Source: an uncultured Bacilli bacterium (GTDB taxonomy: Bacteria > Bacillota_I > Bacilli_A > RF39 > UBA660). Taken from it: 64,000 bases of DNA. Made by a program: the position numbers and the translations under genes. Below are positions 1,134 through 59,084 of this stretch, in pieces. Positions within the stretch are counted from its first letter, which is position 1, and the number at the start of each line of letters is the position of its first letter. The stretch is from assembly GCA_934131175.1 (NCBI GenBank), contig CAKOZD010000002.1, positions 66,403 to 130,402 on the forward strand. Reading direction: 5' to 3'. The notes under the pieces were generated by a model. The model was not told the DNA's origin and did not search any database. It saw only the letters and a list, made by a program, of their open reading frames with translations.

Positions 1134-1136
1134 TAT

Positions 1137-26654: not shown

Positions 26655-26656
26655 GT

Positions 26657-27811: not shown

Positions 27812-27821
27812 TGGTGATATT

Positions 27822-28280: not shown

Positions 28281-28364
28281 CCTCTTTTTTTCTATAAATT
28301 TAAATATTATTTTAATAAAGTATAAATTAATGATATAATTTGATTAGAATATGGAGGTGTTCTT

Positions 28365-28928
28365 GTGAAATATAGTTCTAAAAGTAAATTTAGAAAAATT
28401 ATTAGTGTTTCATTTTTATTTGTACTTGTCCTTGCTCTTTCGATATCATTTATATCTTTCGATAACCCAACAGTTTTAGAGACTTCTATTAATAGAACGA
28501 ATATTTTTGATGTACATATTGATAATGTAAGTGCTAAAAGTAAGGGGAGTGCTACTTATACTTTACCTGTAGTTGATAATATGTCACTTGAAAAATTTAA
28601 TGTAGTTATTAATAAACCAGGTGATGCAGTTACTTTTTATTTTACTGTAACTAATAAAGGAGATATTGCTGCAATATTAAAGAATATTAATAAAAGTAAA
28701 TTTATCTGTTCTGGTAATAATAGTATTGATAATAAGAATGTTTGTGAAAAGTTAACTTATAAATTAAGATATGCTAATTCTAACAATATTAAAGAAAAAG
28801 ATGTATTACAAGTAGGAGAAGTTGCTAATGTAGAATTAGAAATTAAGTATCCTACCAAATCATCTAATATTACATCATCTGTAATGGTTTCTAATTTAGA
28901 TTTTTCTTTAGAATATTATCGAAAATAA
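28365..28928 (+). CDS. signal-anchored hypothetical secreted protein
   Basis: GTG start with a GGAGGTG SD. N-terminal TM. Beta-rich extracytoplasmic domain. Followed by a terminator. Confidence 0.4.
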   Translation: MKYSSKSKFRKIISVSFLFVLVLALSISFISFDNPTVLETSINRTNIFDVHIDNVSAKSKGSATYTLPVVDNMSLEKFNVVINKPGDAVTFYFTVTNKGDIAAILKNINKSKFICSGNNSIDNKNVCEKLTYKLRYANSNNIKEKDVLQVGEVANVELEIKYPTKSSNITSSVMVSNLDFSLEYYRK

Positions 28929-28952
28929 AAGTTTAATTGAACTTTTTTTTTT
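28926..28952 (+). terminator. rho-independent terminator
   Basis: AAAGTT-TAATTG-AACTTT hairpin plus TTTTTTTTT. Confidence 0.5.
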
Positions 28953-29024
28953 AATAAAGATATGCTATACTTGTTTATATAATATGATAGGGTGTTTGGA
29001 ATAGTGTAGGTGGTGAATTACTTT

Positions 29025-47133: not shown

Positions 47134-47156
47134 ATAATTTATGAGGAAGTGATTTT

Positions 47157-47612
47157 ATGAAAAGAATAGTAATTATTATTAGTATAGTTTTTATTTCATT
47201 AATTGTTTGTGGTTGTTCTAAAAAGGAAGTAATTAATGAGTTTGATAATACTATTAAAATGATTAGTGATAATATATTAACTAAGGATGAAAGATTAGTT
47301 GGAGATAGAGTTTTTGGAGTAGACCACTATGTTGGAACTTATAAGGCGAATTATAAAGATTTTAGTAGTGAAGAAATATTATTTGGAGGAACTACTATTG
47401 AGAGAAAAAAAGGTGGTGTTATTCACGTTAAACTAACTATTAAAGGAGATAGTGGAAGTATTAAAGTTATTGCTAGATTAAAAGGAGAAGATAAAGTTTT
47501 AGGAGATAAGAATGGTATATATGAAGTTGATTTAAATGTATTAGATGGAAGTAATTTTATTATAGTTAAAGGAGATAAATTTAGTGGTATTTTACAATTA
47601 GAAATAGAGTAG
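47157..47612 (+). CDS. lipoprotein (hypothetical)
   Basis: Lipobox LIVCGC at residues 15-20. 151 aa. Confidence 0.45.
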   Translation: MKRIVIIISIVFISLIVCGCSKKEVINEFDNTIKMISDNILTKDERLVGDRVFGVDHYVGTYKANYKDFSSEEILFGGTTIERKKGGVIHVKLTIKGDSGSIKVIARLKGEDKVLGDKNGIYEVDLNVLDGSNFIIVKGDKFSGILQLEIE

Positions 47613-47692
47613 GTAATTGTTTAATAAATTTATAAATTATTGATTATTTATGTATGATATAATATTTATATGTTTATTGGATGGTGTTTATT

Positions 47693-48259
47693 ATGAGGGA
47701 TTGGACTTCTTATCAAGAAAAAAGTCTAAATGGTGAAGTTTGTCGTTTATTAAAATATTTTGTGAATCATTATACTGGTTATAAAACAATTGTTGATTTA
47801 GGCTGTGGTGCAGGTAATGAAGTTGTCTATATGTTGAAGAAGGGTTTTTTCGTTACCGCGATAGATAGACAATTAAATAGAAATTATATTTTAGATAGAA
47901 TTGATAATTCTTTAGTTAATAAAGTTTCTTTTATAGAACACGATTTTGTAGGACTTAATATTCCTAAGTGTGATGTTTTAATGTCTTTTTTTAGTATTCC
48001 TTTTTGTAAGATAGAATATTTTGATACTTTATGGAATAATATATATAATTCTATAAATGATAATGGATATTTTGTTGGTCAATTATTTGGCGAGAGAGAT
48101 GATTTAAGATTAGTTGGTGATATTAATGTTTTTTCTAAAGATGAAGCGCTTAAATATTTAAATAGATATGAATTTTTATATTTTAAGGAGTTTGATTTTG
48201 TTAGAGAGACTGATAATAAAAAATGGCATTTTTTTAATTTTATTGTGAGAAAAAAGTAA
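47693..48259 (+). CDS. small class I SAM-dependent methyltransferase (TehB-like)
   Basis: VDLGCGAGNE motif I and acidic VTAID motif II. No DNA-MTase DPPY/NPPY motif. Confidence 0.6.
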   Translation: MRDWTSYQEKSLNGEVCRLLKYFVNHYTGYKTIVDLGCGAGNEVVYMLKKGFFVTAIDRQLNRNYILDRIDNSLVNKVSFIEHDFVGLNIPKCDVLMSFFSIPFCKIEYFDTLWNNIYNSINDNGYFVGQLFGERDDLRLVGDINVFSKDEALKYLNRYEFLYFKEFDFVRETDNKKWHFFNFIVRKK

Positions 48260-48291
48260 CGTATAAATAATTATTGATTTGAGGTGTATTT

Positions 48292-49071
48292 ATGGATAAT
48301 AGAAAATTGTTAGAAAGTATTAAGAAAATAGTTTATGAATGTGGGAAGATTATTGTTAGTGCAGATAGTGATTCTTTAGATATAGAATTAAAAGAGGGTA
48401 ATAATAATGTTGTAACTAATTATGATAAGTTAGTTCAAAATACTTTGAAGGAAAAGTTAACTGCATTAATTCCTGGTTCAGTATTTTTTGGAGAAGAAAA
48501 TAATGAGTATGTAGATGATGTTTCTACTTTAGAAAATGTCTTTATTGTAGATCCAATTGATGGTACAACTAATTTTTCTAGAGGATTTAAGACAAGTTCA
48601 ATTTCTGTTGCATTAGTTAAAAATAATCAACCTGTTATTGGAGTTTGTTATAATCCTTATACTGATGAGATGTATAGTGCGATTAAGGGTGCTGGAGCAT
48701 ATTTAAATGATAAAAAAATATATGTATCTAATGAATGTTTAAAGAATGGTATTTTGTTATCTGGATGTTCTCCATATTATGATGATTTAAGAAGAAAATC
48801 AATTGAGATTCATTCTAAGTTTTGTTCAGTTGCGAGTGATTATAGAAGATTTGGTAGTGCAGTATTAGAAATATGCAGTATCGCAAGTGGTAAGGCAGAA
48901 GTTTATTTTGAACTTAAATTAATGCCTTGGGATTATGCAGCTGCTTCATTAATATTAGAAGAAGCAGGTGGTAAGATAAGTACAATTAATGGAGATGCAC
49001 TACAATATAATAATCCAACTTCAGTACTTGCGAGTAATGGTGTAGAAGATTATTTAGAATATATAAATTAA
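48292..49071 (+). CDS. inositol monophosphatase family protein
   Basis: FGEE, IVDPIDGTTNF and WDYAAASLILEEAGG motifs. Confidence 0.75.
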   Translation: MDNRKLLESIKKIVYECGKIIVSADSDSLDIELKEGNNNVVTNYDKLVQNTLKEKLTALIPGSVFFGEENNEYVDDVSTLENVFIVDPIDGTTNFSRGFKTSSISVALVKNNQPVIGVCYNPYTDEMYSAIKGAGAYLNDKKIYVSNECLKNGILLSGCSPYYDDLRRKSIEIHSKFCSVASDYRRFGSAVLEICSIASGKAEVYFELKLMPWDYAAASLILEEAGGKISTINGDALQYNNPTSVLASNGVEDYLEYIN

Positions 49072-49092
49072 TATTTTAGTAATGGTGGTATT

Positions 49093-49581
49093 ATGAAAGA
49101 AAAATATATTATAATAATAATTGTTGTATTACTTACTTTATTAAGTTTTATTGGTAAAAACATATTTATAAATTATGTTAATTATGACTGGGATGCAGTG
49201 AAGGATAATAAATATGTAAAAATTAATAAAAGTAATTTAGAAGTTTTTAAAAAGTATGATGACTATATGCAATATTATTCTGATTTTAAAGATAATAATT
49301 CAAAAAGAAAATATTATTTTAAGAATACTTTTTCTAAAAATAATATATATGTTTTGAAATATAATACAAAGTTATGTGGCGAAAAAATACTAAAAACAAA
49401 ATTAAAAACAAAAGGAAATACTGCTAATATTTATTTAGATATAGATGGAGGTTGTGGTTTTTGTTCTCCTGATGATATTTATAAAACATTTAAAATTAAT
49501 AAAAAAATTAAAAAAGTTAACGTCTATTCTAAGATTGTAAGAAAGCCTTTTTGCCTAGAGTATGACCAAGTACAAAAATAG
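49093..49581 (+). CDS. signal-anchored hypothetical protein with four Cys (CGEK..DGGCGFC..PFC)
   Basis: N-terminal TM. 162 aa. Lys/Tyr-rich. Convergent with the radical SAM gene. Confidence 0.35.
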   Translation: MKEKYIIIIIVVLLTLLSFIGKNIFINYVNYDWDAVKDNKYVKINKSNLEVFKKYDDYMQYYSDFKDNNSKRKYYFKNTFSKNNIYVLKYNTKLCGEKILKTKLKTKGNTANIYLDIDGGCGFCSPDDIYKTFKINKKIKKVNVYSKIVRKPFCLEYDQVQK

Positions 49582-49601
49582 AAATCTAAATTACAAATAT
49601 A

Positions 49602-49630
49602 AAAACTCATATCAAATTGATATGAGTTTT
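49602..49630. terminator. bidirectional terminator between convergent genes
   Basis: AAAACTCATATC-AAATT-GATATGAGTTTT perfect 12-bp stem flanked by A/T runs on both strands. Confidence 0.55.
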
Positions 49631-50477
49631 ATCTTCTTAATAACCTTTTTATAAACATTTTTTTAGTTTTGGGTTTATCTGTATTTTCACGACTTTCATT
49701 AATTTTATTTTCTACTTCTGTATTTATTAGGTCTATTAAATCAGTTTGTTTTATATGACCTAGGTTATTTATATCCATATCTATATATTCGCCATCTCCG
49801 TTTGTTGTTAGAAAACCTGTTGCTGTTAAATAGAAAGCGTTATATACATTTATAGTGTTATTACTTATAAGAAATTTTATTGGATCTACTTCATATGTGT
49901 ATGGCTTACCAGTTTTGGCAAGTCCTGTCTTTAAAATGTCTTCATCGTTAGAGTCTTTCCAATCTAGAAATATATCTTTACATGCATTTTGGTATGCTGA
50001 TATTTGTTCCTCTGTTAGAGGTTTATGATATTTATTTCTTGATATGGCAATTAATGAAAAGTTAGTCATATAAGGAATTTCTGATTCCATAGAATATTCT
50101 TTAGCAAATTGTATCATTTGTTCAATTTCATCTTTTAACTCTTCTTTTTTGTATAAATTAAACTTTGTAAAAGCATCTATAATTTTAGGTGATAAAATAT
50201 GACCATTAGTTACCATTTCAATTGAGTTAACAGGAATTTTATCATTAATGATTTTATCAATTATATAAACAATCATATCTTCATTTAAAGTAGGTTCTCC
50301 TCCACTAAATACAATAGCATTTACTGTGACATTTTCCTTATTAATCATATTTAATATAAGGTCAACATCTTCTTTTGAAATATTTACTTTTTGACTTGGA
50401 CCACGCATACAGAAATCTTTACATATTAAATTGCAATTACGTGTTACTTCAATAGCAATTCTTTTAATATTTATATT
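49629..50477 (-). CDS. radical SAM protein with non-canonical CX3CX3C cluster motif
   Basis: Reverse-complement translation of 50390-50477 gives MNINIKRIAIEVTRNCNLICKDFCMRGPS. The Cys spacing is C-x3-C-x3-C. The AIVFSGGEPTLN glycine-rich SAM motif follows. 282 aa from ATG 50477 (the track extends to 50486). No SPASM-like C-terminal Cys cluster. Confidence 0.6.
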   Translation of the reverse strand, partial: NINIKRIAIEVTRNCNLICKDFCMRGPSQKVNISKEDVDLILNMINKENVTVNAIVFSGGEPTLNEDMIVYIIDKIINDKIPVNSIEMVTNGHILSPKIIDAFTKFNLYKKEELKDEIEQMIQFAKEYSMESEIPYMTNFSLIAISRNKYHKPLTEEQISAYQNACKDIFLDWKDSNDEDILKTGLAKTGKPYTYEVDPIKFLISNNTINVYNAFYLTATGFLTTNGDGEYIDMDINNLGHIKQTDLIDLINTEVENKINESRENTDKPKTKKMFIKRLLRR

Positions 50478-50637
50478 CATAAGCACTCCTTTTTTTGATT
50501 ATTATAATAAAATATTTTTTTGTGTCAATAAAAATACTACTTTTAGTTATTTTATTTTCTTTCTAAATCAGACTAATTATCTTTTTTAATATATCTTTTT
50601 TTTGATATTTTTTGTATAATTTATAGTAGGTGATAAT

Positions 50638-52692
50638 ATGAAAATAAATAATAAAGGTTTTTCATTAGTTGAATTACTGGCTGTTGTTGCAATTCTTGCT
50701 GTTTTAGCAACTGTTGGTATTTCTGCATATTCAAAGTATGTGGAAGATTCTAAGAGAACAATGTATGCAAAAATGGCAAAAGATTATATAAATGAGGCTA
50801 GAGTTCAAATTTCTAGTAAGGAAATCAAAAAGATTTCTAATCCAACGTATTCATATTATATTTCTATTGAGAAACTTTCAGATAATGATCCATTAGAACC
50901 ATCTCCGTTTGGTAAGTGGAATGAAGCTTATGTTATTTTTGTTCCTGGAAAAAACGGACAAGACAGATATTATTTTGCTAGTATCGATGAAGTTGGTTGG
51001 ATGATTGATGGAGTAGAAGAGTCTAAAATTACTAAAAATAGTGTTAAGCATGTTACTGATAAAGATTCATTAGATAAGAAATTTAAAGGTGATGGTACTG
51101 AAAAGATAATTACTATTAATGGAGATGGTACTAGAGGTGAGTCTAAAGAAACTATTGCTTGGACAATTTCTGAAACTAAGAAATGTTTTAGTTTTACTAA
51201 TTTAAGTAATGGTACTATAAGACTTAATTATTATAATCTTGCATGCGGTAAAGATGTTACTATACCAACACAAGTTGGTGGTAAAAAAGTAACTGAAATT
51301 TATACATCTACATTTGATAGTATGGGTATTACTAGTGTTAATTTACCTAGTACTTTAACTAGTATTGGGTCTCGTGCATTTATTAGTAATAATCTTACTT
51401 CTGTTAATATACCGAGTGGTTGTAAAAATATTGGGTCTGAGGCATTTTATAGTAATAAAATAAGTAGTGTTAAAATACCTAGTACTGTTTCAACAATTGG
51501 ACAAAGAGCTTTCTATAATAATAAAATAAGTGGTTATATATATAAGATTGTTCCAAATAAAGATGCAACTATTGGTTCATGTGCGTTCTGTAAAAATAAT
51601 GTATATGGTGCTGGATTTACATTTAGTGGTCAAGCAGTAAAGGGTTATATTGGAGATTTTTCTGAATTTGCTGATAAGAGGTTTATAATTCCTACAGAAA
51701 CTCCAGATGGAAAACCAGTAACTGAAATTAGTGGTTCAGCATTTTATGGATTACCTTTAGGTGGTTATACAGTTGTTATTCCAAGTACTGTTACAAAAAT
51801 TGGGGGTTCGGCGTTTAGTTTTTCAGGAATTAGTGCAGTAAACTTACCAAAAGGTTTAAAAACGATAGAGGGTTCAGCATTTTATTCATGTAGTTTAACA
51901 TCACTTGATATTCCTGATACTGTAACATCAATTGGTGGACTTGCTTTTAATAGAAATAGTGTTAGTGCATCAAGTAAAGATTTATGGATATATAGAAGAA
52001 CGGCTAGTGGAATAGATTATTCAACAATTATTGGATATTCAGGAGCAAATAGAACTAATTTAGTTATTCCAACAACTGCGGGTCCTAAAAAGACAACTCT
52101 TACAACTATTGGAGATAATGCTTTTAGATATTTGGACTTAAGAGGAAGTTTGGTAATACCAAGTACTGTTTCATCATATGGTTCACTTGCATTTAATCTT
52201 AATTATTTATCAAGTATTGATCAAGGATATGATACAAAAGGAAATAAAGTTGTATCTACTGATGGTATTATATATAAACGTACAGGAAGTGGAAAAGTAG
52301 ATACCTCATATGTATACTCTTTTGCAAATAATAATAATGCTCATCCTGTTATACCAAGCGGTGTTAAAACTATAGGACCATATGCATTTTATTATTCTAG
52401 AATTCAAAGCATAAGTTTACCAGAGGGACTTACTACTATTGGAAATAATGCTTTTGAACTTGCAGATTTACGTGGTACTGTTACAATTCCAAGTACAGTA
52501 ACATCTATTGGAAGTAATGCATTTTATAAAGCAAAGACATGGACATCATTTAATTATTATATGACGAAGATAGTAAACAAAACTAATCGTTCATTTGATT
52601 GGAAAAGTATAACTGGAGGTCCAAGTACTGCAAATTTTGTAACTGGTACTGTAGAAAATTGGTATGGAGATATTGAAGTAGTTAGGGGATAG
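50638..52692 (+). CDS. type IV prepilin-like protein fused to a BspA-type leucine-rich-repeat (LRR_5) domain (modular pilin/adhesin candidate)
   Basis: Class III signal MKINNKG|FSLVELLAVVAILAVLATVGI (Gly-1, Phe+1, Glu+5). Pilin-like head shared with the gene at 53046. Then at least 12 repeats of about 23-25 aa of the type (V)T.IG..AF....LTSV.IPSTVT.IG..AF. Confidence 0.6.
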   Translation: MKINNKGFSLVELLAVVAILAVLATVGISAYSKYVEDSKRTMYAKMAKDYINEARVQISSKEIKKISNPTYSYYISIEKLSDNDPLEPSPFGKWNEAYVIFVPGKNGQDRYYFASIDEVGWMIDGVEESKITKNSVKHVTDKDSLDKKFKGDGTEKIITINGDGTRGESKETIAWTISETKKCFSFTNLSNGTIRLNYYNLACGKDVTIPTQVGGKKVTEIYTSTFDSMGITSVNLPSTLTSIGSRAFISNNLTSVNIPSGCKNIGSEAFYSNKISSVKIPSTVSTIGQRAFYNNKISGYIYKIVPNKDATIGSCAFCKNNVYGAGFTFSGQAVKGYIGDFSEFADKRFIIPTETPDGKPVTEISGSAFYGLPLGGYTVVIPSTVTKIGGSAFSFSGISAVNLPKGLKTIEGSAFYSCSLTSLDIPDTVTSIGGLAFNRNSVSASSKDLWIYRRTASGIDYSTIIGYSGANRTNLVIPTTAGPKKTTLTTIGDNAFRYLDLRGSLVIPSTVSSYGSLAFNLNYLSSIDQGYDTKGNKVVSTDGIIYKRTGSGKVDTSYVYSFANNNNAHPVIPSGVKTIGPYAFYYSRIQSISLPEGLTTIGNNAFELADLRGTVTIPSTVTSIGSNAFYKAKTWTSFNYYMTKIVNKTNRSFDWKSITGGPSTANFVTGTVENWYGDIEVVRG

Positions 52693-52695
52693 AAT

Positions 52696-53022
52696 ATGAA
52701 AAATAAAAAAATTATTGTTATTGTAGTTTTTATAATTTCACTTATATTAATAGGAACAGGAATATTTCTTAGTTTAAAAGGAGACTATAATACTAAGAAT
52801 GAAAATAATGAAATAGATAATGGTGAAGTAATAGGAGATTATAATATTAATTATTATAATAGTGTAGATGAGGCAATTAACTATATTAAAGCTATAAGAA
52901 ATACAGAAAATGTTAATATTGTTAATGAAGACGAAAATAACTATTATATAGAAGTTAGTGTTGATAATAGTACTTTTAATTATGTTTATTCTAAAGTAGA
53001 TAATACTTTAACAGATGAATAA
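52696..53022 (+). CDS. small signal-anchored protein (possible non-canonical minor pseudopilin)
   Basis: 108 aa. N-terminal TM IIVIVVFIISLILIGTGIFL. Sits 3 nt after the upstream stop, between two prepilin genes. Confidence 0.35.
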   Translation: MKNKKIIVIVVFIISLILIGTGIFLSLKGDYNTKNENNEIDNGEVIGDYNINYYNSVDEAINYIKAIRNTENVNIVNEDENNYYIEVSVDNSTFNYVYSKVDNTLTDE

Positions 53023-53045
53023 TAGTATATTTAGGATGTGATAAT

Positions 53046-53648
53046 ATGTTTAGATTAAATAATAAAGGTTTTTCATTGATTGAACTTTTGGCAGCAATGG
53101 TTATTCTAATTATTTTGTTTTCATCAATTATGGTTAGTACAGGAGCAATAATTAGAAATTCTAATAAAAATGCATTTATTATTAATGCTAAGGCTTATGC
53201 TAATGCATTAAGAGAAAATAGTTATCAAGATGATTTAAGCATTGATGAAGAAGATAGCGTTTTCTTTATTGACCCTAAATATTTAGATATGGATAGTACT
53301 AATTATGAAAGTCCTTTTGGAGAGTATGTAGTTAATTATTTAGTTGTAACATACGATGGTGATAAATTTCACTACTTTTATGTAGCATATGATGATGAAG
53401 GTTGGGGGATTAGGTTAGGAAAAGAACTTACTAATTTAAAAAAGTCTGATGTTGAATTCTTAGATGATGATTTTAATGAAGAAATTTTTGAATATAAAAA
53501 ATTTAATAATTCAAATAAAAATTGTTCTAAACTTAAAAGTTATTTAATAAACGTAAATAATTCATCTGATCCGTTTAGTGATAAAACAAAAGCTGTATTT
53601 GTTGATAAAGAAGGAGAATTTACTACTGTTGATTTAAGTGGTTGCTAA
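53046..53648 (+). CDS. type IV prepilin-like protein (minor pilin/pseudopilin candidate)
   Basis: MFRLNNKG|FSLIELLAAMVILIILF class III signal peptide. The head domain is paralogous to the N-terminal 150 aa of the LRR fusion (ESPFGEYVVNYLVV..YFYVAYDDEGWGI vs PSPFGKWNEAYVIF..YYFASIDEVGWMI). Confidence 0.6.
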   Translation: MFRLNNKGFSLIELLAAMVILIILFSSIMVSTGAIIRNSNKNAFIINAKAYANALRENSYQDDLSIDEEDSVFFIDPKYLDMDSTNYESPFGEYVVNYLVVTYDGDKFHYFYVAYDDEGWGIRLGKELTNLKKSDVEFLDDDFNEEIFEYKKFNNSNKNCSKLKSYLINVNNSSDPFSDKTKAVFVDKEGEFTTVDLSGC

Positions 53649-53649
53649 G

Positions 53650-53680
53650 TAGATAGACTTTTCTATCTATTTTGTTTTCT
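53650..53680 (+). terminator. terminator-like hairpin after the pilin gene
   Basis: AGATAG-ACTTTT-CTATCT hairpin plus ATTTTGTTTTC. Confidence 0.45.
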
Positions 53681-53751
53681 TTAATAAAAAAATGTTAAAA
53701 AACTTATAATAAAAGTGATATAATTTTATTATGATAGAGGAGGATTTTTAT

Positions 53752-54900
53752 ATGGATTTAAATTATGACTCTAACCAATATGAAATAGGTGAAGGTGTTA
53801 TGTCTTCTATTAAAAGTTCAATAGATACTAGTAATTCATCAATAAAAAGTGATTTTGATAAAGTTATTAGTGTTGCGAATGATTATAAAATTAATTTGTC
53901 AAATACTATAAAACTTGATGATTTACAAAGTGATTTTTCTTCACTAAGTACTTATTTAGATGATGTTTCTAAAAGTGCACTTTTAGCTAAATCTGCAATT
54001 GATACTTATTCTAAAAGTGACGGTACAGAAGAAGACAGGCAAATATTGTTATCTGTTCTTGGAGCAAGTATAAGTACTTCTCAACCTAATGCTTTTGTTA
54101 GAACTGTTTATACTGGTTTAATGGGTGGAGCAATGTTTGGAGAAGGTTTTCTTAGTTTTTTTGAAGATGTTGGAGATTGTGCCATTGTTTTAGGTAGTGG
54201 AGTGGTTGGATTATTTGATAAAAAGAAAGCTCAAGAAATGAGAGATTTTGCATCTAAAAATTTATCTAAGGATTTATTTGAAAATAATTCTACATTTGAA
54301 AAAATCAATAAATATAGTTATTTTGATAAAAATAGTGTTTATGCTGATGTATTTAAATTAGGTGGAAAGGCTGCTGCTGCAGTAACTGTTGGTAGTGTTG
54401 CATCTAAGACTGTTAGTAGTTTTACAAAAGCAAAATCTACTGCTGTTGCATCTAATATTAGTACATTTGGAAGTGATACAAGAGAAAATTTGAGTAGAGG
54501 AATGGGATTAAAGAGTTCTTTAATGTTTGCTGGAGCAAGTCTTGCTACGACACATGCAGTTAATAAGTATCTGTCACCTGCCCTTGCATCTAAAGTAGGA
54601 GAAACAGTTGCTGGTACAAAGGTTGGAAATGTTATTAGAGGTGCTGATACAGTAGCATCTAGTGTTTTTGGAAGTAATGTTGATAATGTAAAAAGTGTTG
54701 CTCAAACTGCGGTTGATTACTCTATTAAAGAGACAAAATCAAAAACAGATAATTTAGTATCTGGTGATGGAAATGAAAAAACTACAAATGACGCGGTTGC
54801 TCAAGATGCTGCAAATCTAGGAATAGATACTGCTAAAACAACAGGTGAGCAAGTAATTGAAAAATCTATAGAAAAGGCTGTAGTTGATGCAGTGTTATAA
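53752..54900 (+). CDS. Gly/Ala/Ser/Val-rich hypothetical protein resembling the post-LXG linker region of T7SS polymorphic toxins (no toxin domain recognised)
   Basis: ATG 53752 with a GGAGG SD. SIKSDFDKV and TGLMGGAMFGEGFLSFFEDVGDCAIVLGSGVVGLFD, then GGKAAAAVTVGSVASKTVSSFTKAKSTAVAS. The composition mirrors the B. subtilis YeeF segments FIKSDFQKL...GFKGVAVGLYDSGKDAVVGLWD...VGTVVTSIVGTKGVGAVSKTGAAAKVTTKVKTAASK, as I recall that sequence. Confidence 0.35.
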   Translation: MDLNYDSNQYEIGEGVMSSIKSSIDTSNSSIKSDFDKVISVANDYKINLSNTIKLDDLQSDFSSLSTYLDDVSKSALLAKSAIDTYSKSDGTEEDRQILLSVLGASISTSQPNAFVRTVYTGLMGGAMFGEGFLSFFEDVGDCAIVLGSGVVGLFDKKKAQEMRDFASKNLSKDLFENNSTFEKINKYSYFDKNSVYADVFKLGGKAAAAVTVGSVASKTVSSFTKAKSTAVASNISTFGSDTRENLSRGMGLKSSLMFAGASLATTHAVNKYLSPALASKVGETVAGTKVGNVIRGADTVASSVFGSNVDNVKSVAQTAVDYSIKETKSKTDNLVSGDGNEKTTNDAVAQDAANLGIDTAKTTGEQVIEKSIEKAVVDAVL

Positions 54901-54915
54901 GAGGAGGTTAATATT

Positions 54916-55203
54916 ATGAATAATTTTTTACCAGTAGGAAGTGTAGTTTTATTAAAAAATGGTAAGAAACCAATATCGATTATTGGTTATAAGATGTCTT
55001 CTTTAGATAATAAATATTTAATGAAAGGTCATGAAACTACATCTAATAAAGTTTATGATTATTGTGCAGTACTATATCCAGAAGGGTTAATTAGTAGTGA
55101 CAACTTTATTTTGTTTGATAAAGAAAATATTGAAACTGTTATTTTCAAAGGGTATGAAAGTGATGATTGCAAGGAATTATTTGATTTTTTAAGTAAAGAA
55201 TAG
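54916..55203 (+). CDS. DUF4176-like small protein
   Basis: 95 aa. MNNFLPVGSVVLLKNGKKPISIIGYK fits the N-terminal L/PLGSVV.LK.G...LMIIGR pattern I associate with DUF4176, a family I recall being linked to Firmicutes T7SS/LXG loci. From memory, not verified. Confidence 0.4.
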   Translation: MNNFLPVGSVVLLKNGKKPISIIGYKMSSLDNKYLMKGHETTSNKVYDYCAVLYPEGLISSDNFILFDKENIETVIFKGYESDDCKELFDFLSKE

Positions 55204-55211
55204 GTGATAAT

Positions 55212-55847
55212 ATGGGATTTGTTAATATGAAAGAGTATTCTGAAAATAATTTACCTAAAGCAGGTAGTGCATCAGAATATGTTGTTTGTGAAAGTATTAG
55301 TAATTATCATCCTTTTGATATAAGTGGAGCATTTGATGCAATAGAGAGTGCTTGTAGTGAAGTTATTAGTAGTTCTAATGATTACTGTAATGATTTGAAA
55401 GATAAGATAACTTCTTTAGGAGACGAGTGGGGGCAAAAGTTTATCTCAATAAATGAAAAAGATATTGGTATAGTAGTTCCAGAGCAGTTTCAAGATGATT
55501 ATGATAATATTACAAGTCATATACAAGAACAAGTTGATAGATGTAAAACACTAGCATCAGATGTTAGTAATAGATTAGATGAAGTAAAATTATATGTGCA
55601 AAAGTTAGAAGAAAATTTGAAAACTTTTAATGATTTACGTAATAAAAAAAGTTCACTTGAAAGTAGTATTTCAAATTGTGAACGAAGTATAAGTGCTGAG
55701 TATTCTAAAGAACAAGTAAATAGTTCAGTTATTTCTAATTTGCAAGTTAAAAAGAATGGTTATGAAACAGAACTTGCAGGTGTTAATTCGAAAATATCTC
55801 AGTATAATATGATTAATGAACCAGATGGACAATGGATAGTTGCATAA
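55212..55847 (+). CDS. hypothetical coiled-coil protein with a W-x-G segment (SLGDEWGQKF)
   Basis: 211 aa. Predicted helical/coiled-coil C-terminal half. SD AGGTGA. Confidence 0.35.
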   Translation: MGFVNMKEYSENNLPKAGSASEYVVCESISNYHPFDISGAFDAIESACSEVISSSNDYCNDLKDKITSLGDEWGQKFISINEKDIGIVVPEQFQDDYDNITSHIQEQVDRCKTLASDVSNRLDEVKLYVQKLEENLKTFNDLRNKKSSLESSISNCERSISAEYSKEQVNSSVISNLQVKKNGYETELAGVNSKISQYNMINEPDGQWIVA

Positions 55848-55857
55848 ACTATCTTTT

Positions 55858-56565
55858 TTAATTACAAGAAATTCCATCAATACAAATATTTATTGTATAA
55901 ATACTGTTACCTCTATATTCATTATTTTTAAAATCATCATTGTCATCATATGTAAATACGCTAAATTGTATTTTAGAATCTATGTCAAAACAAGAATAAC
56001 TCATTTGCATTTTAAAAGCAGTAAATAAAGTGTTATCATTCATTTGATTGCTTTCTATATGAGAATAAAAACTTTTTCCTTGATTGGCATAGTCGTCATA
56101 TAAGTAATTCATTAGATATTCCCACTTATCAAAAGTGTTATCTGGACCATAAATATTATATGAAATATTTTCTCCATTTTTTAATTTAAATTTAATATTA
56201 AATCCTATTTTTAAATTATTATTGATATTTTTAAAATTAGTCCATTCATTATAAAAAGAAGTTGCAAAAGTATTATTTAGAGTAATTTCTTCTTTGTTAC
56301 TTGGAAATATTTGAAAAGTATCAATAAGTCCTTCTACTTCTAATTTTGTATTAATTGTATGTAGTTTTATTAATTTATTTCCAGATAGTTTATAAATACC
56401 AATTGGTGTGGTATTTAAATCTTTATAAGAGTCTTTTTCTGCTTTTACATTTTCTTCTTTAATTATTTCTTTTTGTGTTTTTGGTTCTTGTTCGTTTTTA
56501 TTTTCTTTTACACATCCTGTACAAATAGTTAATATAATTAATAGTATATATAGTGTTTTTTTCAT
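55858..56565 (-). CDS. lipoprotein (hypothetical)
   Basis: Lipobox ICTGC at residues 13-17. 235 aa. Beta-rich. Confidence 0.45.
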   Translation of the reverse strand: MKKTLYILLIILTICTGCVKENKNEQEPKTQKEIIKEENVKAEKDSYKDLNTTPIGIYKLSGNKLIKLHTINTKLEVEGLIDTFQIFPSNKEEITLNNTFATSFYNEWTNFKNINNNLKIGFNIKFKLKNGENISYNIYGPDNTFDKWEYLMNYLYDDYANQGKSFYSHIESNQMNDNTLFTAFKMQMSYSCFDIDSKIQFSVFTYDDNDDFKNNEYRGNSIYTINICIDGISCN

Positions 56566-56701
56566 AATATCAATCCTTTATTTAATTATATCAAATGATT
56601 AGTGCTTTATATTTTAAATTTTTATTAAAAAGTTATTGCTTTAATATTTTTGTTGTTTTAGAATATGGATTAATATTTAATTTGATTAGGGGAGATATAA
56701 A

Positions 56702-57241
56702 ATGAAAGAAAAAGTACAAGACGAAGTACAAGAAGAACAAGAAAATAAGTATGAGGAAATGCTTAGAAAAATTGATGAGTTAAGATATTTATATTATGCA
56801 AATGAGCATGATAAAGATGTTTGTGCTGCTATTGAGAAATGTATAAAAGATATGAAATTAGGTGAATTAGAATATCCTATTATTGATAAGAAAGAAGGAG
56901 AAGAAACATATAAATATGTTATGCTTGATGATGATTATGAATTTCCTACAATTGTTGAGACAACTTTAGAAGATTATCATGATGTTTCAGAAATGTTATA
57001 TATTGCTTATACTGCTCATGGTGATGATCAAATGTTTTTTATTGAGTTTGCAATAGAGCCGGAAGATTTATTTAAATTACTTTTATTACAAGCAAATATG
57101 GGGATTATCTCAATAAGTAAAACACCTTATACTGGTATGAATAATGTTCGTTACTGGGTTAGAAAACCTTATAGAAATTCATTTGGTGCATTTATTGATG
57201 GAAAGAAAAGTAAAAATTCAATGCAATATCAGAAAAAGTAA
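56702..57241 (+). CDS. hypothetical acidic cytoplasmic protein (immunity-protein-like)
   Basis: 179 aa. Acidic N-terminus. No motif recognised. Confidence 0.3.
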   Translation: MKEKVQDEVQEEQENKYEEMLRKIDELRYLYYANEHDKDVCAAIEKCIKDMKLGELEYPIIDKKEGEETYKYVMLDDDYEFPTIVETTLEDYHDVSEMLYIAYTAHGDDQMFFIEFAIEPEDLFKLLLLQANMGIISISKTPYTGMNNVRYWVRKPYRNSFGAFIDGKKSKNSMQYQKK

Positions 57242-57293
57242 TTGTTTTCTAGTTTGTTGAAGTTTATTTTATAATATTTCTATGGTGAAAGAT

Positions 57294-57719
57294 ATGGAAA
57301 AAAGGATTTATACACAAAAGTTTGAAGTAAATAAATTTAGTATTTCTATTTTTATGCTTATTTGTTTAATTATTTGTATATTTTTATTGATGTTAGGATT
57401 TTATAGTGTTTTTTCTTTATATTTAATATTGGCAATAGCTGTTATCTGTTTTATTGCTTTGTATTTGTTATTATATGTTTTATTATTTATAAAAAATAAT
57501 AAATTAATAATATATGACAATCATATAGAAGTAGTTGTTTTTGAATTTTTTCATGTAAAAAAATATAATTTAAAAATAGAAGATGTGCAAGAAGTAAATA
57601 TAGAGCATAATGTTGGTTGGGAAATATATATTGAATTGAAAAATAATGAAATTATAAGATTTAGTAGTTTATGTTTACCTTTAGGTAAGGGTCATATTAT
57701 GAGGCAAAAAAGTTATTGA
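57294..57719 (+). CDS. small membrane protein (two TM helices plus a beta-rich cytoplasmic domain)
   Basis: ATG 57294 with a GGTGAAAG SD. Two adjacent TM helices. Confidence 0.35.
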   Translation: MEKRIYTQKFEVNKFSISIFMLICLIICIFLLMLGFYSVFSLYLILAIAVICFIALYLLLYVLLFIKNNKLIIYDNHIEVVVFEFFHVKKYNLKIEDVQEVNIEHNVGWEIYIELKNNEIIRFSSLCLPLGKGHIMRQKSY

Positions 57720-57891
57720 ATGCTTTAAAAAAAGTTAACTTATAAGAATATTTAAGTTTTCTTTAATATTTTAATTATTAATTCATATTGATTGAGTAGG
57801 TTTATTTAAAACCTATTTTTTGTTATAATTTATTATAAAAATATGTATTATTTTAATTTTAAATTTTTGTTGCAATGGAGGTTTTGTAAAA

Positions 57892-58404
57892 ATGAATATT
57901 GAAATAAGAAAAGCTACAGCAAATGATGCTAGCAAAGTCATTGATTTTTGTAAGAAAGTTGGATCAGAAACAGATAATTTATCATATGGGTCTGAGGGAA
58001 TTGGTAGTAATATAGATAGAATTGCTAAATATTTAGATAATGTTTATAATTCTAATACTTCAGTTTTTCTCATTGCAATCATAGATAATGAAGTTGTTGG
58101 TTATGCCGAGTTTATGGGAATGTTTAGAAAAAGATTATCACATCTTGGAGAAATTGGAATAGCAGTTATAAAAGAATATCAAAATAAAAAAATTGGTTCA
58201 AATCTTATGAAACAATTAATTTATTATGTAAAAAATGATATTAATGCTGAAATAATTGAATTAAAGGTAAGAGTTGATAACGAAAAGGCAATTAATATGT
58301 ATAAAAAATTTGGTTTTAAAAAGATTGGATATTATGAGAAATATTTAAAAGTTGATGATAAGTATTTTGATTGTGATATTATGACATTATGTTTAAAAAG
58401 ATAG
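57892..58404 (+). CDS. GNAT-family N-acetyltransferase
   Basis: GNAT motif A region (IAVIKEYQNKKIGSNLMKQL) and motif B. 170 aa. Confidence 0.6.
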   Translation: MNIEIRKATANDASKVIDFCKKVGSETDNLSYGSEGIGSNIDRIAKYLDNVYNSNTSVFLIAIIDNEVVGYAEFMGMFRKRLSHLGEIGIAVIKEYQNKKIGSNLMKQLIYYVKNDINAEIIELKVRVDNEKAINMYKKFGFKKIGYYEKYLKVDDKYFDCDIMTLCLKR

Positions 58405-58443
58405 TTAAATTTTTAATAGTATTTATATTCTAAGGAGACGAAA

Positions 58444-58941
58444 ATGAAATATTTAATAAGGAAAAGTAGTAGAGAAGATTGTAAAGATATTGCTCATTTA
58501 ATTACTATTATTTGGAATGAAACTTATAGAGGTATAGTTAGTGATAATTTTTTAAATAAATTATACGAAAATGAAGATGAAAGAAGTAATAATTTATATG
58601 AAGAATTTAATGATAGTCATATGTTAGTTCTAGTTATTAATGGTAGAATAGTTGGATTTGTAAATGTTGGAGAGTCTTCTGATGAAAATTATGATAAATG
58701 TGGTGAGCTATATGCTTTATATGTACTTAGTAAATATCATGGCCAAGGTTATGGGAAGAAACTATTTTTAGCAGGTGTAGATGAATTAAAAAATATGGGA
58801 TATAGCAAAATGTTAATAGGATGTCTTGATGGTAATTTGAGTAATAGTTTTTATAAACATATGGGTGGAATATATGTTAAGACTCGTCTTTTTGAAAAAT
58901 TGCAGTTACCTGAAAATGTATATTATTTTGAAAATATCTAA
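58444..58941 (+). CDS. GNAT-family N-acetyltransferase
   Basis: LYVLSKYHGQGYGKKLFLAG motif A (Q/R-x-x-G-x-G/A). 165 aa. Confidence 0.6.
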   Translation: MKYLIRKSSREDCKDIAHLITIIWNETYRGIVSDNFLNKLYENEDERSNNLYEEFNDSHMLVLVINGRIVGFVNVGESSDENYDKCGELYALYVLSKYHGQGYGKKLFLAGVDELKNMGYSKMLIGCLDGNLSNSFYKHMGGIYVKTRLFEKLQLPENVYYFENI

Positions 58942-59084
58942 ACTTATAATTGCATTGCTAAAAAGTTTAATAATAGATAGAATTTTTTAGTGTTATGTAG
59001 ATAGATTAAATATTTTTAACTCTATCTTTTTATTTTTGATAAAATATGATAATATATTAAAGCAAGAAAAAGGGGGAATATGCT

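What the first reader, a model, noticed from the sequence alone, without database searches (positions are those of the whole stretch)
49629..57719. Composite candidate locus: rSAM gene, pilins, LXG-linker-like protein, DUF4176-like protein and immunity-like small proteins, without secretion machinery
Within about 8 kb there are a radical SAM enzyme, two prepilins and a Gly/Ala/Ser/Val-rich 389-aa protein. That protein's motifs and composition resemble the region just after the LXG domain in type VIIb polymorphic toxins. Next come a DUF4176-like 95-aa protein, a coiled-coil W-x-G-containing protein, and then a lipoprotein, an acidic protein and a two-TM protein that look like orphan immunity/accessory genes. 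No EssC/EsaA/YukBCD T7SS genes and no pilus ATPase are present. This looks like a surface or interbacterial-interaction island whose parts do not match a described system as a unit.
Basis: inference. Interest (0 to 1): 0.7.

Follow-up and report, generated by a model that had tools for sequence, protein, structure and literature searches.

The report
Conserved DUF4176 chaperone three-gene cassette
The 8-kb "island" is several unrelated neighbouring gene modules; the real unit is a three-gene operon found across a group of uncultured gut bacteria, which pairs a known type VII secretion chaperone with two uncharacterised helical proteins and is swapped between strains as a block.

Summary
The "W-x-G" is really W-G, and gene 1 starts at 53752. 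The 8-kb region is not one system.

- Comparison with more than 25 related loci shows that only three genes travel together: gene 1 (53752-54900, 382 aa), a small DUF4176 protein (54916-55203) and gene 3 (55212-55847, 211 aa).
- These three genes have their own promoter-like site and ribosome-binding site, and a hairpin separates them from the pilin genes.
- The rSAM gene and the acidic/two-TM genes sit on strain-variable indels. The pilins are confined to close relatives.
- Gene 1 has no Pfam, NCBIfam or PDB relative and is not an LXG protein. It is homologous (hhalign 99.9%) to the N-terminal part of about 100 longer proteins that often lie beside DUF4176 genes, once 5 kb from a bona fide essC.
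- In a same-species strain the whole trio is replaced by a diverged allele: dS 0.58-0.87 against 0.03-0.17 in the flanks.

The best reading is a non-LXG, T7SS-type cargo with its chaperone and a co-evolving helical partner. Whether this genome has a T7SS could not be tested.

The parts
53650..53669 (+). AT-rich hairpin (TAGATAGA-CTTT-TCTATCTA) followed by a T-run, directly after the stop codon of the 200-aa prepilin. It is a terminator-like boundary between the pilin operon and the trio.
   Evidence: Read from the sequence. Unique in the window, with 0.02 matches expected by chance. The consensus terminator scan missed it because the stem has too few G-C pairs.
53695..53724 (+). Promoter-like site with an extended -10 element (TTAAAA, 18 nt, TG-n-TATAAT) upstream of gene 1.
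   Evidence: 10 of 12 matches, TG before the -10. This is a consensus match only. The upstream intergenic DNA is also diverged in the L010 allele (68% identity), so it belongs to the exchanged cassette.
53752..54900 (+). Gene 1, 382 aa. It has an N-terminal helix-turn-helix (residues 7-87) ending in an invariant Tyr86. A conserved central Gly-rich domain (about residues 115-215) carries the motifs T121, G125, E131-G-F, F137-E, G141 and S189-Y-F-D-K-x-S195. The C-terminal half is rich in Gly, Ala, Ser and Val and is predicted helical with low confidence. There is no signal peptide and no classical TM segment. It is the presumed client of the DUF4176 chaperone.
   Evidence: No Pfam, NCBIfam or PDB hit. 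Family of 73 clusters at 90% identity. Alignment A1. AF2 pLDDT 45, with only the hairpin at moderate confidence. Hydropathy and [GAS]xxxG motifs at 122-153. hhalign against long-form relatives gives 99.9%, E=4.9e-31. GGAGG site before the ATG at 53752.
54916..55203 (+). Gene 2, 95 aa: a small DUF4176 protein of the Ltc/Lcp-type T7SSb toxin chaperone family.
   Evidence: PF13780 E=1.2e-22, 80.2 bits against a cutoff of 25. PDB 9DCS (the TelD-associated small DUF4176 protein) E=1e-5 over residues 1-83. dN/dS 0.08 between alleles. Lies 15 nt after gene 1, with its own GGAGG site.
55212..55847 (+). Gene 3, 211 aa, acidic (net charge -15). It is an elongated three-helix bundle (H38-73, H91-164, H171-196) with small beta elements at both termini. 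Invariant residues are F3, Y9, P15, Y23, C26, [YF]32-x-P34-x-D36, L69, W73-G74, Y128 and P204-x-G206-x-W208. It is a co-evolving partner of gene 1.

Best explanation
The functional unit is a three-gene operon (53752-55847), not the 8-kb region.

Proposed mechanism:
- Gene 1 encodes a cytoplasmically made helical protein with no signal peptide. Its N-terminal helix-turn-helix acts as a T7SS-type export domain. Its conserved Gly-rich central domain and Gly/Ala/Ser-rich helices are membrane-active or aggregation-prone.
- Gene 2, the small DUF4176 protein, binds and shields those amphipathic or hydrophobic helices in the producer's cytoplasm and keeps gene 1's product stable. This is what was shown for DUF4176 with TelD, TelA, TelB and TelE.
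- Gene 3 is an elongated three-helix partner that co-evolves with gene 1. It most likely stacks on gene 1's N-terminal hairpin as a Lap- or PPE-like targeting or co-secretion partner. Its invariant W-G turn, together with gene 1's invariant Tyr86, would give a bipartite signal.
- Export would use a type VII system encoded elsewhere in the genome.

What is shown:
- the DUF4176 identity;
- strict co-occurrence and gene order of the trio;
- homology of gene 1 to longer proteins that sit beside DUF4176 genes, in one case 5 kb from essC;
- exchange of the whole cassette between strains.

What is inferred:
- the physical interactions between the three proteins;
- export through a T7SS;
- membrane activity of gene 1.
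For: 1. DUF4176 identity: PF13780 at 80 bits and PDB 9DCS at E=1e-5. 9DCS is the small DUF4176 protein required for stability and export of the membrane-depolarising toxin TelD. The authors propose that small DUF4176 proteins bind membrane-inserting helices (PMC12478183).
2. Co-occurrence: the order gene 1, DUF4176, gene 3 is kept from 98% down to 29% identity, among different housekeeping neighbours each time.
3. Operon signals: internal gaps of 15 and 8 nt, Shine-Dalgarno sites, a promoter-like site, and a hairpin after the pilin gene.
4. Link to T7SS:
   - The gene 1 profile matches about 100 longer proteins (hhalign 99.9%).
   - In three of the four long-form contexts sampled these are followed by a DUF4176 gene and preceded by small helical ORFs, some with weak sub-threshold WXG100 matches.
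   - One lies 5 kb from an EssC that passes the curated cutoff (TIGR03928, 933 bits against 778).
   - In four short-form lineages the trio is followed by WXG100 genes, and in L004-6 also by peptidoglycan hydrolases. The L004 WXG100 protein passes the TIGR03930 cutoff.
5. Gene 1 anatomy: no signal peptide and no TM segment. Four overlapping [GAS]xxxG motifs fall in the most conserved stretch, 122-153. AF2 confidence is low beyond the hairpin, as reported for chaperone-dependent regions (PMC12478183). Tyr86 at the end of helix 2 is invariant in 87 of 88 members and is conserved in the long forms.
6. Evolution: in L010 the flanks are 94-100% identical but the trio is 68-78% identical. dS is 0.58-0.87 in all three trio genes against 0.03-0.17 in the flanks. 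dN/dS is 0.37 for gene 1, 0.47 for gene 3 and 0.08 for DUF4176. Genes 1 and 3 therefore co-diverge, while the chaperone is constrained.
Against: - No essC, esxA or other T7SS core gene lies in the 64-kb window or within 10 kb of any of the 25 or more short-form loci. Only one of four long-form contexts has essC nearby.
- Gene 1 has no LXG or WXG100 signature.
- The acidic residue expected at +4 of the export-arm Tyr is present in only 19 of 88 members.
- Gene 3's [YF]xPxD motif lies before helix 1, not at the end of helix 2 as in Lap1.
- No immunity-like membrane protein is conserved next to the trio. A self-toxic pore-former would normally need one.
- The trio persists without DUF4176 in one lineage (L018/L022).
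- Fold searches for gene 3 were uninformative.
- No interaction between the three proteins was modelled.
Confidence: 0.55

Rival explanations
1. Toxin-immunity reading of the same trio. Gene 1 is a membrane-depolarising toxin, DUF4176 is its chaperone, and gene 3 is a soluble cytoplasmic neutraliser (immunity protein) that sequesters the toxin's glycine-rich helices before export. This would be analogous to ExiAB for EsxX or TipE for TelE, rather than to a targeting factor.
For: - Genes 1 and 3 co-diverge (63% and 60% identity) while the chaperone stays at 85%. This is typical of toxin-immunity pairs.
- Gene 3 follows gene 1 even where DUF4176 is missing (L018/L022).
- Gene 3 is acidic and soluble.
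- Soluble cytoplasmic neutralisers of glycine-zipper T7SS toxins are documented (PMC12744356).
- This reading would explain why no membrane immunity gene is conserved.
Against: - Gene 3 is an all-helical elongated bundle. It does not have the SHS2/GyrI-like DUF5085 fold of ExiB and TipE, and it gives no DUF5085 hit.
- Protection against toxin delivered from outside by sister cells would still need a membrane protein, and none is conserved.
- The elongated helical shape and the invariant W-G turn fit T7SS helical partners better.
Confidence: 0.2
2. T7SS-independent module. The trio is a cell-envelope or membrane-associated housekeeping system of this reduced-genome lineage. DUF4176 would serve as a general chaperone for an amphipathic protein that acts on the producer's own membrane, for example in membrane remodelling, division or wall synthesis. 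No secretion would be involved.
For: - The trio is never linked to T7SS core genes in the short-form clade.
- It appears to be inherited vertically among housekeeping genes, often next to envelope genes: MurJ/Polysacc_synt, FemAB and PBP5 for short forms, and FtsW and MreC for long forms.
- There is no immunity gene.
- Long forms have a C-terminal membrane anchor.
Against: - Every experimentally studied DUF4176 protein is T7SSb-specific (PMC12478183, PMC12482557).
- WXG100 and hydrolase effector arrays abut the trio in four lineages.
- Cassette-level allelic replacement and decay of all three genes in one strain are unusual for a housekeeping function.
- dN/dS of 0.37-0.47 is high for core envelope proteins.
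Confidence: 0.18
3. The rSAM gene, pilins, 382-aa protein, DUF4176, 211-aa protein, lipoprotein, acidic protein and two-TM protein together form one surface or interbacterial-interaction island.
For: The genes are physically adjacent in the window and in the 98% relatives. Both the LRR pilin and the trio are plausibly surface-related or interaction-related.
Against: - Sister strains lack 47,134-50,574 (which includes the rSAM gene) and 56,626-59,023 (acidic, two-TM and two GNAT genes) but keep the pilins and the trio.
- Relatives at 63% identity or lower keep the trio with entirely different neighbours.
- A hairpin and a promoter-like site separate the pilin genes from the trio.
- The rSAM gene and the lipoprotein gene are on the opposite strand.
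- The lipoprotein and acidic protein do not co-vary with the trio allele.
Confidence: 0.04
4. A remnant of a phage or other mobile element, with structural or defence genes.
For: DUF4176 matches a PHROG of unknown function (phrog_14657, E=8e-16). The cassette is exchanged between strains.
Against: - Genes 1 and 3 have no PHROG or PADLOC assignment other than coiled-coil noise.
- No integrase, repeats or tRNA lie at the borders.
- The position among housekeeping genes is stable across a whole clade.
Confidence: 0.03

Closest known systems
Small DUF4176 chaperone with a membrane-depolarising T7SSb toxin (MQE10_09270/TelD in Streptococcus intermedius; SACOL2601/TspA in S. aureus; LcpE/TelE in S. 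gallolyticus)
   Same: - A 70-130-aa DUF4176 protein is encoded beside a helical, Gly-rich protein that has no signal peptide.
- The chaperone is conserved while the client is variable.
- The client is predicted with low confidence on its own.
   Different: - The client here has no LXG domain, and no Lap1/Lap2 (DUF3130/DUF3958) genes lie upstream.
- No DUF443, DUF5079/5080 or DUF5085 immunity gene is present.
- The DUF4176 gene lies between the client and a novel 211-aa partner.
- The locus is unlinked to ess genes and sits as a single copy among housekeeping genes across a whole clade.
LXG polymorphic toxin operons (lap1-lap2-[ltc]-LXG toxin-immunity)
   Same: - A helical N-terminal region is followed by a chaperone-dependent middle region.
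- There is a helical partner protein.
- Alleles vary within a species.
   Different: - No PF04740 hit.
- The Leu of the helix 1-2 turn is invariant but the Gly is not.
- There is no variable C-terminal toxin domain. The C-terminal part is homologous across the family.
- No immunity gene array is present.
PE/PPE/EspG of mycobacterial T7SSa
   Same: The logic has three parts: a helix-turn-helix protein with a conserved Tyr at the end of helix 2, a roughly 200-aa helical partner with a conserved Trp-Gly turn, and a dedicated cytoplasmic chaperone.
   Different: - No sequence or profile similarity.
- The acidic residue at +4 is not conserved.
- The chaperone has a different fold family (DUF4176, not EspG).
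- The organisms are Bacillota.
Long-form relatives of gene 1 (about 100 uncharacterised 600-1000-aa proteins, e.g. P0104, P0106, P0117)
   Same: They are homologous over about 230 residues, including the helix-2 Tyr and the GEGFxxFEDxGD / S-x-F-x-x-x-S core. They are usually followed by a DUF4176 gene.
   Different: - Long forms add an N-terminal 'WLTGR' motif, a Pro/Thr-rich linker, a hydrophobic helix about 70 residues from the C-terminus and an acidic tail.
- They are preceded by three small helical ORFs.
- They lack any homologue of gene 3.

Membership tests
DUF4176 (PF13780), small Ltc/Lcp-type T7SSb chaperones | Profile match above the curated cutoff | tested here: met
   80.2 bits against a cutoff of 25, E=1.2e-22, covering profile positions 1-70 of 74.
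DUF4176 (PF13780), small Ltc/Lcp-type T7SSb chaperones | Length of 70-130 aa and sequence similarity to a solved small DUF4176 protein | tested here: met
   95 aa. PDB 9DCS (the TelD-associated protein) matches at E=1e-5 over residues 1-83. The size classes are defined in PMC12478183.
DUF4176 (PF13780), small Ltc/Lcp-type T7SSb chaperones | Encoded among T7SS genes (LXG toxin, Lap or DUF443 immunity genes) | tested here: not met
   The neighbours are two uncharacterised families. No LXG, Lap or DUF443 hit at E<=1. Indirect link only: homologues of gene 1 lie beside DUF4176 genes, and one is 5 kb from essC.
DUF4176 (PF13780), small Ltc/Lcp-type T7SSb chaperones | Required for the stability and export of its client protein | not testable with these tools
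   Needs genetics or biochemistry.
LXG polymorphic toxin (PF04740) | N-terminal LXG domain detectable by profile | tested here: not met
   No Pfam or NCBIfam hit for gene 1 at E<=1. None for 10 long-form relatives at E<=0.01. No PDB LXG chain matched the family profile at E<=10.
LXG polymorphic toxin (PF04740) | Conserved Leu-x-Gly in the helix 1-2 turn | tested here: not met
   L49 is invariant, but position +2 is N, E, D, S or T in most members and Gly in only one sequence.
LXG polymorphic toxin (PF04740) | Variable C-terminal toxin domain with a cognate downstream immunity gene | tested here: not met
   The C-terminal half aligns across the whole family. No conserved immunity-like gene lies downstream.
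WXG100 (PF06013), considered for the 211-aa protein | About 100 aa, a helix-turn-helix fold, a W-x-G turn and a profile match | tested here: not met
   211 aa with three helices. The motif is W73-G74, not W-x-G. No PF06013 hit was listed at E<=1. A local WXG HMM gave E=0.62.
Lap1 (DUF3130) / Lap2 (DUF3958) targeting factors, considered for the 211-aa protein | Profile match, and an FxxxD motif near the end of helix 2 of a roughly 100-150-aa hairpin | tested here: inconclusive
   No profile hit. An invariant [YF]32-x-P-x-D36 exists, but it precedes helix 1. The motif position in Lap1 is taken from 10.1101/2022.07.06.499029.
DUF5085 (ExiAB/TipE) cytoplasmic immunity, considered for the 211-aa protein | DUF5085 profile match and an SHS2/GyrI-like fold | tested here: not met
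   No hit. The model is all-helical. The family fold is described in PMC12744356.
T7SSb locus | essC and esxA (with essA, essB, esaA, esaB) in the same locus | tested here: not met
   No ORF over 800 aa, no WXG100-like ORF, and the 20 mid-sized ORFs scanned are housekeeping or unassigned. No EssC homologue was found in any short-form locus.
T7SSb locus | essC/tsxC present somewhere in the same genome | not testable with these tools
   Only 64 kb of this genome is available. Non-canonical T7SS variants also exist in Bacillota (PMC11217815).
Type IV pilin / pseudopilin (the two prepilin genes) | Class III signal peptide with G|FxxxE and N_methyl motifs | tested here: met
   PF07963 at 27.8 and 27.7 bits (cutoff 21.2), plus TIGR02532. 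The sequences read KG|FSLVE and KG|FSLIE.
Type IV pilin / pseudopilin (the two prepilin genes) | Assembly ATPase, platform protein and prepilin peptidase in the same locus | tested here: not met
   None was found among the window ORFs scanned. Smaller ORFs were not all scanned.
Radical SAM (PF04055) | Profile match and a CX3CX2C cluster motif | tested here: inconclusive
   39.1 bits against a cutoff of 29.5, N-terminal half only. The sequence reads C18-x3-C22-x3-C26, not CX3CX2C. All NCBIfam equivalog scores are far below their cutoffs.

The most novel reading that the evidence does not exclude
Gene 1 and its roughly 100 long-form relatives define an unrecognised class of DUF4176-chaperoned proteins that are neither LXG nor WXG100. 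They are kept as single-copy, vertically inherited genes without immunity partners. Under this reading they are not antibacterial toxins but T7SS-exported (or T7SS-independent) envelope or host-interaction factors. The long forms would be displayed on the surface by a C-terminal tail anchor and a Pro/Thr-rich wall-spanning linker. The short form would be released together with a lineage-specific partner, gene 3. The cassette would be kept polymorphic within species by exchange of whole alleles.
Probability: 0.25. Interest if true: 0.7.

Novelty: new variant of a known kind. Interest (0 to 1): 0.45.

Why it matters
DUF4176 chaperones were characterised only in 2025, and only with LXG toxins of streptococci and staphylococci. 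The authors noted that small DUF4176 proteins rarely sit next to LXG genes and that their clients are unclear (PMC12478183).

This cassette offers a concrete, conserved candidate client family that has no LXG domain, no Pfam model and no solved relative. It also comes with a second novel partner protein, in uncultured reduced-genome gut Bacillota.

If export is confirmed, the known repertoire of T7SS cargo and targeting logic would widen. It would also give a handle on what T7SS does in gut commensals that cannot yet be cultured.

The sharp replacement of the whole cassette within one species suggests that selection acts on it in the gut.

Most of the 8-kb region is unrelated strain-variable DNA.

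Tried and rejected
- **Gene 1 structure.** The AF2 model (17-sequence alignment) had pLDDT 45, so no fold search was run on it.
- **Profile searches against PDB sequences.** A1, A2 and A4 found either nothing or coiled-coil noise.
- **Shared domain between genes 1 and 3.** This was suggested by P0166 matching both profiles. hhalign gave a probability of 1.6%. P0166 and P0252 are fusions of the gene 1 N-terminus with the gene 3 C-terminus.
- **Gene 3 against long-form downstream proteins.** No homology to the 168-, 220- or 173-aa proteins.
- **EssC near a short-form trio.** Searched 42 loci with the L028 EssC and found none. The ORFs flanking the trio in L021 are metabolic.
- **Phage or defence origin.** PHROGs and PADLOC gave nothing specific.
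- **Canonical YxxxD/E export arm in gene 1.** The Tyr is invariant, but the acidic +4 residue is present in only 19 of 88 members.
- **Divergence hot-spot in the ~90% allele class.** Identity is a uniform 89-92% across trio and flanks. The hot-spot is specific to the L010 allele.
- **Boundary hairpin as a repeated element.** It occurs once in the window.

Full report
**1. What is in the sequence**

The window has about 25% GC. It is chromosomal, with a 12-tRNA array at 309-1424 and ribosomal, tRNA-synthetase and other housekeeping genes. All ten ORFs named in the finding exist. Profile searches gave the following results.
- The rSAM protein matches PF04055 at 39.1 bits (cutoff 29.5), over its N-terminal half only.
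- Two proteins carry prepilin N-methylation motifs with canonical KG|FSL[VI]E sites. The 684-aa one also has BspA-type LRR_5 repeats (E=2.8e-59).
- The 95-aa protein is DUF4176 (PF13780, 80.2 bits, cutoff 25).
- The 389-aa and 211-aa proteins, the lipoprotein, the acidic protein and the two-TM protein have no significant family.
- The DUF4176 protein matches PDB 9DCS at E=1e-5.

Two details need correcting.
- Gene 1 begins at 53752 (382 aa), because all homologues start there and a GGAGG site precedes that ATG.
- The 211-aa protein has no W-x-G. It has an invariant E-W-G.

No window ORF exceeds 800 aa. A local HMM built from genuine WXG100 proteins of related loci finds none in the window. The 20 mid-sized ORFs scanned are housekeeping or unassigned.

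**2. The 8-kb region is a mosaic; the unit is a three-gene cassette**

Homologues of gene 1 form a small family: 73 clusters at 90% identity, none with a Pfam domain.

I fetched their genomic contexts at 98, 63, 48, 39, 37 and 29% identity. I added 11 loci from species-representative genomes and 13 from metagenomes. In every locus with enough DNA, gene 1 is followed by a DUF4176 gene and then by a homologue of the 211-aa protein, in that order. The one exception is the L018/L022 lineage, where gene 3 follows gene 1 directly.

The flanks differ between lineages and are housekeeping genes. They include MurJ/Polysacc_synt, FemAB, SSB, NifU, a nucleoside phosphorylase and SAM synthetase.

All hosts are uncultured gut or rumen MAGs labelled Mollicutes, Bacilli, Erysipelotrichaceae or Bacillales.

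A presence/absence matrix and blastn comparisons give the following picture.
- The pilin operon accompanies the trio only in relatives with at least 88% identity.
- Window segment 47,134-50,574 (lipoprotein, methyltransferase, IMPase, 162-aa protein and rSAM) is missing from sister strains L030-L033. There the ABC permease gene abuts the pilin operon.
- Segment 56,626-59,023 (acidic protein, two-TM protein and two GNAT genes) is missing from L007, which carries the same 98% trio allele, and from L032/L033.

Within the window, a hairpin plus T-run (53650-53669) follows the second pilin gene. Next come an extended -10 promoter-like site (53695-53724) and a strong ribosome-binding site. The trio genes are 15 and 8 nt apart. 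The rSAM gene and the lipoprotein gene are on the other strand.

**3. The cassette is exchanged as a block**

In L010 the lipoprotein, acidic protein and 398-aa protein are 96-98% identical to the window's copies, so this is the same species. Yet gene 1 is 63% identical, DUF4176 85% and gene 3 60%.

| Measure (window vs L010) | Gene 1 | DUF4176 | Gene 3 | Flanks |
|---|---|---|---|---|
| Protein identity | 63% | 85% | 60% | 96-98% |
| DNA identity in 200-nt windows | 68-86% | about 85% | 68-82% | 94-100% |
| dS | 0.65 | 0.87 | 0.58 | 0.03-0.17 |
| dN/dS | 0.37 | 0.08 | 0.47 | 0.06-0.42 |

DNA identity jumps to 94-100% exactly at the 3' end of gene 3, at about 55,800.

The high dS in all three genes means the whole cassette came from a diverged source, rather than simply evolving fast in place. 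Genes 1 and 3 co-diverge, while the chaperone is strongly constrained.

The putative immunity genes do not co-vary with the cassette. This argues against them being cognate to it.

In one assembly (L014 = L033, about 5x coverage), gene 1 and DUF4176 carry four frameshifting deletions and gene 3 has a premature stop. The 3.7 kb of flanking coding sequence there is intact. This suggests the cassette is dispensable.

**4. What the three proteins are**

*DUF4176.* PDB 9DCS is MQE10_09270, a small DUF4176 protein shown to be required for the stability and export of the membrane-depolarising LXG toxin TelD. Large DUF4176 proteins (LtcA, LtcB) fold a disordered amphipathic helix of TelA and TelB. The authors note that small DUF4176 genes rarely neighbour LXG genes, and they propose that these proteins bind membrane-inserting helices (PMC12478183). 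Similar roles are reported for TspA (PMC11322744), TelE (10.64898/2026.03.12.711312) and S. suis toxins (PMC12482557).

*Gene 1.*
- It has no signal peptide and no classical TM segment.
- The AF2 model is all-helical with pLDDT 45. Only the N-terminal helix-turn-helix (H7-44, H56-87) reaches moderate confidence.
- The most conserved stretch is residues 115-215. It contains T121, G125, E131-G-F, F137-E, G141 and S189-Y-F-D-K-x-S195, with four overlapping [GAS]xxxG motifs at 122-153.
- Tyr86 at the end of helix 2 is invariant in 87 of 88 members. An acidic residue at +4 occurs in only 19 of 88, and at +3 in another 37. The site therefore resembles the T7SS export arm but is not canonical.

An exhaustive profile search of 1.84 billion representatives found 194 hits. 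About 26 belong to the core family. Roughly 100 are longer proteins of 600-1000 aa that match at their N-terminus. hhalign between the two groups gives 99.9% probability and E=4.9e-31 over 231 columns, including the helix-2 Tyr.

The long forms have no Pfam domain. They share an N-terminal WLTGR motif, a Pro/Thr-rich linker (48 of 102), a hydrophobic helix about 70 residues from the C-terminus (64 of 102) and an acidic tail. They are a conserved tail-anchored family, not polymorphic toxins.

In three of the four long-form contexts sampled, the long form is followed by a DUF4176 gene and preceded by three small helical ORFs. One of these ORFs gives a weak sub-threshold WXG100 match. One context lies 5 kb from an EssC that passes the equivalog cutoff (TIGR03928, 933 bits against 778).

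*Gene 3.*
- It forms a well-defined family with invariant F3, Y9, P15, Y23, C26, [YF]32-x-P34-x-D36, L69, W73-G74, Y128 and P204-x-G206-x-W208.
- AF2 gives a confident elongated three-helix bundle with pLDDT 85 and pTM 0.68.
- It is not homologous to gene 1 or to the proteins downstream of the long forms.
- Its profile touches WXG100-like proteins only weakly (E=3e-4 in a small local database).

**5. Link to type VII secretion in the short-form clade**

In four lineages (L004-6/L024, L017, L021 and L036), the trio is followed by WXG100 genes. One of them, in L004, passes the TIGR03930 cutoff. In L004-6 the trio is also followed by an array of peptidoglycan hydrolases (NlpC/P60, glucosaminidase, lysozyme), each paired with a small WXG100-like protein. 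Those genomes therefore very probably have a T7SS.

No EssC lies within 10 kb of any short-form trio. I could not search whole genomes. Bacillota also carry non-canonical T7SS variants (T7SSc and T7SSe-j), so the absence of Ess/Yuk genes nearby is weak evidence of absence (PMC11217815).

**6. Most likely mechanism**

My confidence in this reading as a whole is 0.55.
- Gene 1 is a T7SS-type cargo without an LXG domain.
- DUF4176 stabilises its Gly-rich amphipathic region in the cytoplasm.
- Gene 3 is a co-evolving helical partner, most likely stacking on gene 1's N-terminal hairpin. This would resemble Lap proteins on LXG domains or PPE on PE.
- Export uses a T7SS encoded elsewhere in the genome.
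- Outside the cell, the Gly-rich domain acts on a membrane or on the envelope.

Shown: the family identities, the co-occurrence, the operon signals, the homology to DUF4176-linked and essC-linked proteins, and the allele exchange. Inferred: binding, export and activity.

Rival readings, with my confidence in each:
- Gene 3 is a soluble cytoplasmic neutraliser, analogous to ExiAB (PMC12744356). It does not have that fold (0.2).
- The module is T7SS-independent and envelope-associated (0.18).
- A phage or mobile-element remnant (0.03).

**7. Novelty and score**

The chaperone family is known. The client family, the partner family and the cassette architecture are not described in Pfam, NCBIfam, the PDB or the T7SS and DUF4176 papers I read. 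I rate it a new variant of a known kind, with interest 0.45.

It is a useful lead for T7SS biology in uncultured gut Bacillota, and it offers a concrete candidate client for small DUF4176 proteins.

Noticed in passing
window 49629-50486 (-), within the variable segment 47134-50574: The radical-SAM protein has Cys spacing C18-x3-C22-x3-C26 rather than the canonical CX3CX2C. Only its N-terminal half matches the family, and there is no SPASM domain. It sits on a 3.4-kb segment (lipoprotein, methyltransferase, IMPase, 162-aa protein, rSAM) that is absent from sister strains L030-L033. The methyltransferase alone is also absent from L007.
   Followed up: partly
window 50638-52692; L030, L032: The prepilin-LRR protein (class III signal peptide plus BspA-type LRR_5 repeats) varies in repeat content between strains. 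In L030 and L032, window stretches of about 51017-51210, 51369-51464 and 51748-52517 have no aligned counterpart in blastn. A 908-aa prepilin-type protein also lies 7 kb from the trio in the distant relative L011. Pilin-anchored LRR adhesins may be common in this clade.
   Followed up: partly
window 56626-59023: A 2.4-kb indel carries the acidic protein, the two-TM protein and two GNAT acetyltransferases. It is absent from L007, L032 and L033. In L010 the acidic gene is kept (96% identity), but the rest is replaced by an unrelated 145-aa protein with an N-terminal hydrophobic leader.
   Followed up: partly
L014 10049-12091 (same assembly as L033 5843-7885): In MAG UMGS532 the whole trio looks decayed. 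Gene 1 and DUF4176 carry four 1-2-nt frameshifting deletions, and gene 3 has a premature stop. The adjacent pilin and lipoprotein genes are intact. Coverage is only about 5x, so sequencing error is not excluded.
   Followed up: partly
P0166, P0252 (contigs of 632-2706 bp); L018 633-2483; L022 9992-11842: One lineage lacks the DUF4176 gene between genes 1 and 3. In the same lineage, 153-154-aa proteins fuse the first 65 or so residues of gene 1 to the last 88 or so residues of gene 3, joined at a shared 'YLDKL' stretch. They are either a deletion variant or an assembly chimera.
   Followed up: partly
L004 12219-16891 (also L005, L006, L024; partly L017, L036): Directly downstream of the trio lies an array of canonical WXG100 proteins and three peptidoglycan hydrolases (NlpC/P60, glucosaminidase, phage-type lysozyme). 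Each hydrolase is preceded by a small WXG100-like protein. This looks like a set of T7SS cell-wall-degrading effectors that lack Pfam LXG hits.
   Followed up: partly
P0104-P0225; L025, L026, L028, L043: A family of about 100 uncharacterised proteins of 600-1000 aa has a conserved N-terminal 'WLTGR' motif, the gene 1 core domain, a Pro/Thr-rich linker, a C-terminal hydrophobic helix and an acidic tail, but no signal peptide. In spore-forming Clostridia-like genomes they sit in a module of three small helical ORFs, the long form, DUF4176, and proteins of about 165 aa and about 220-250 aa. In L028 a bona fide essC lies 5 kb upstream. The syntenic L043 has PrsW and a glycosyltransferase at that position instead.
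   Followed up: partly
L001/L004 3340-5815; L028 15029-17560; L043 15310-17838: Both the short-form and the long-form modules lie within a few kb of leuS in several genomes, and an HD-domain gene accompanies the long-form modules and short-form L021. This hints that the two module types occupy orthologous chromosomal positions.
   Followed up: no
window 23427-25196: A 589-aa protein has a C-terminal serpin domain (PF00079, E=4.9e-43) and a long N-terminal extension. It is a bacterial serpin in a low-GC gut bacterium from a clade of uncultured MAGs.
   Followed up: no
window 25282-30260: A run of six small co-directional ORFs (152-244 aa) is followed by a 416-aa DUF5305 protein (E=7e-16). The cluster was not characterised.
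   Followed up: no
window 309-1424: A tight array of 12 tRNA genes (Val, Thr, Tyr, Gln, Lys, Leu, Ser, Met, Asp, Phe, Arg, Pro) lies at the start of the window.
   Followed up: no
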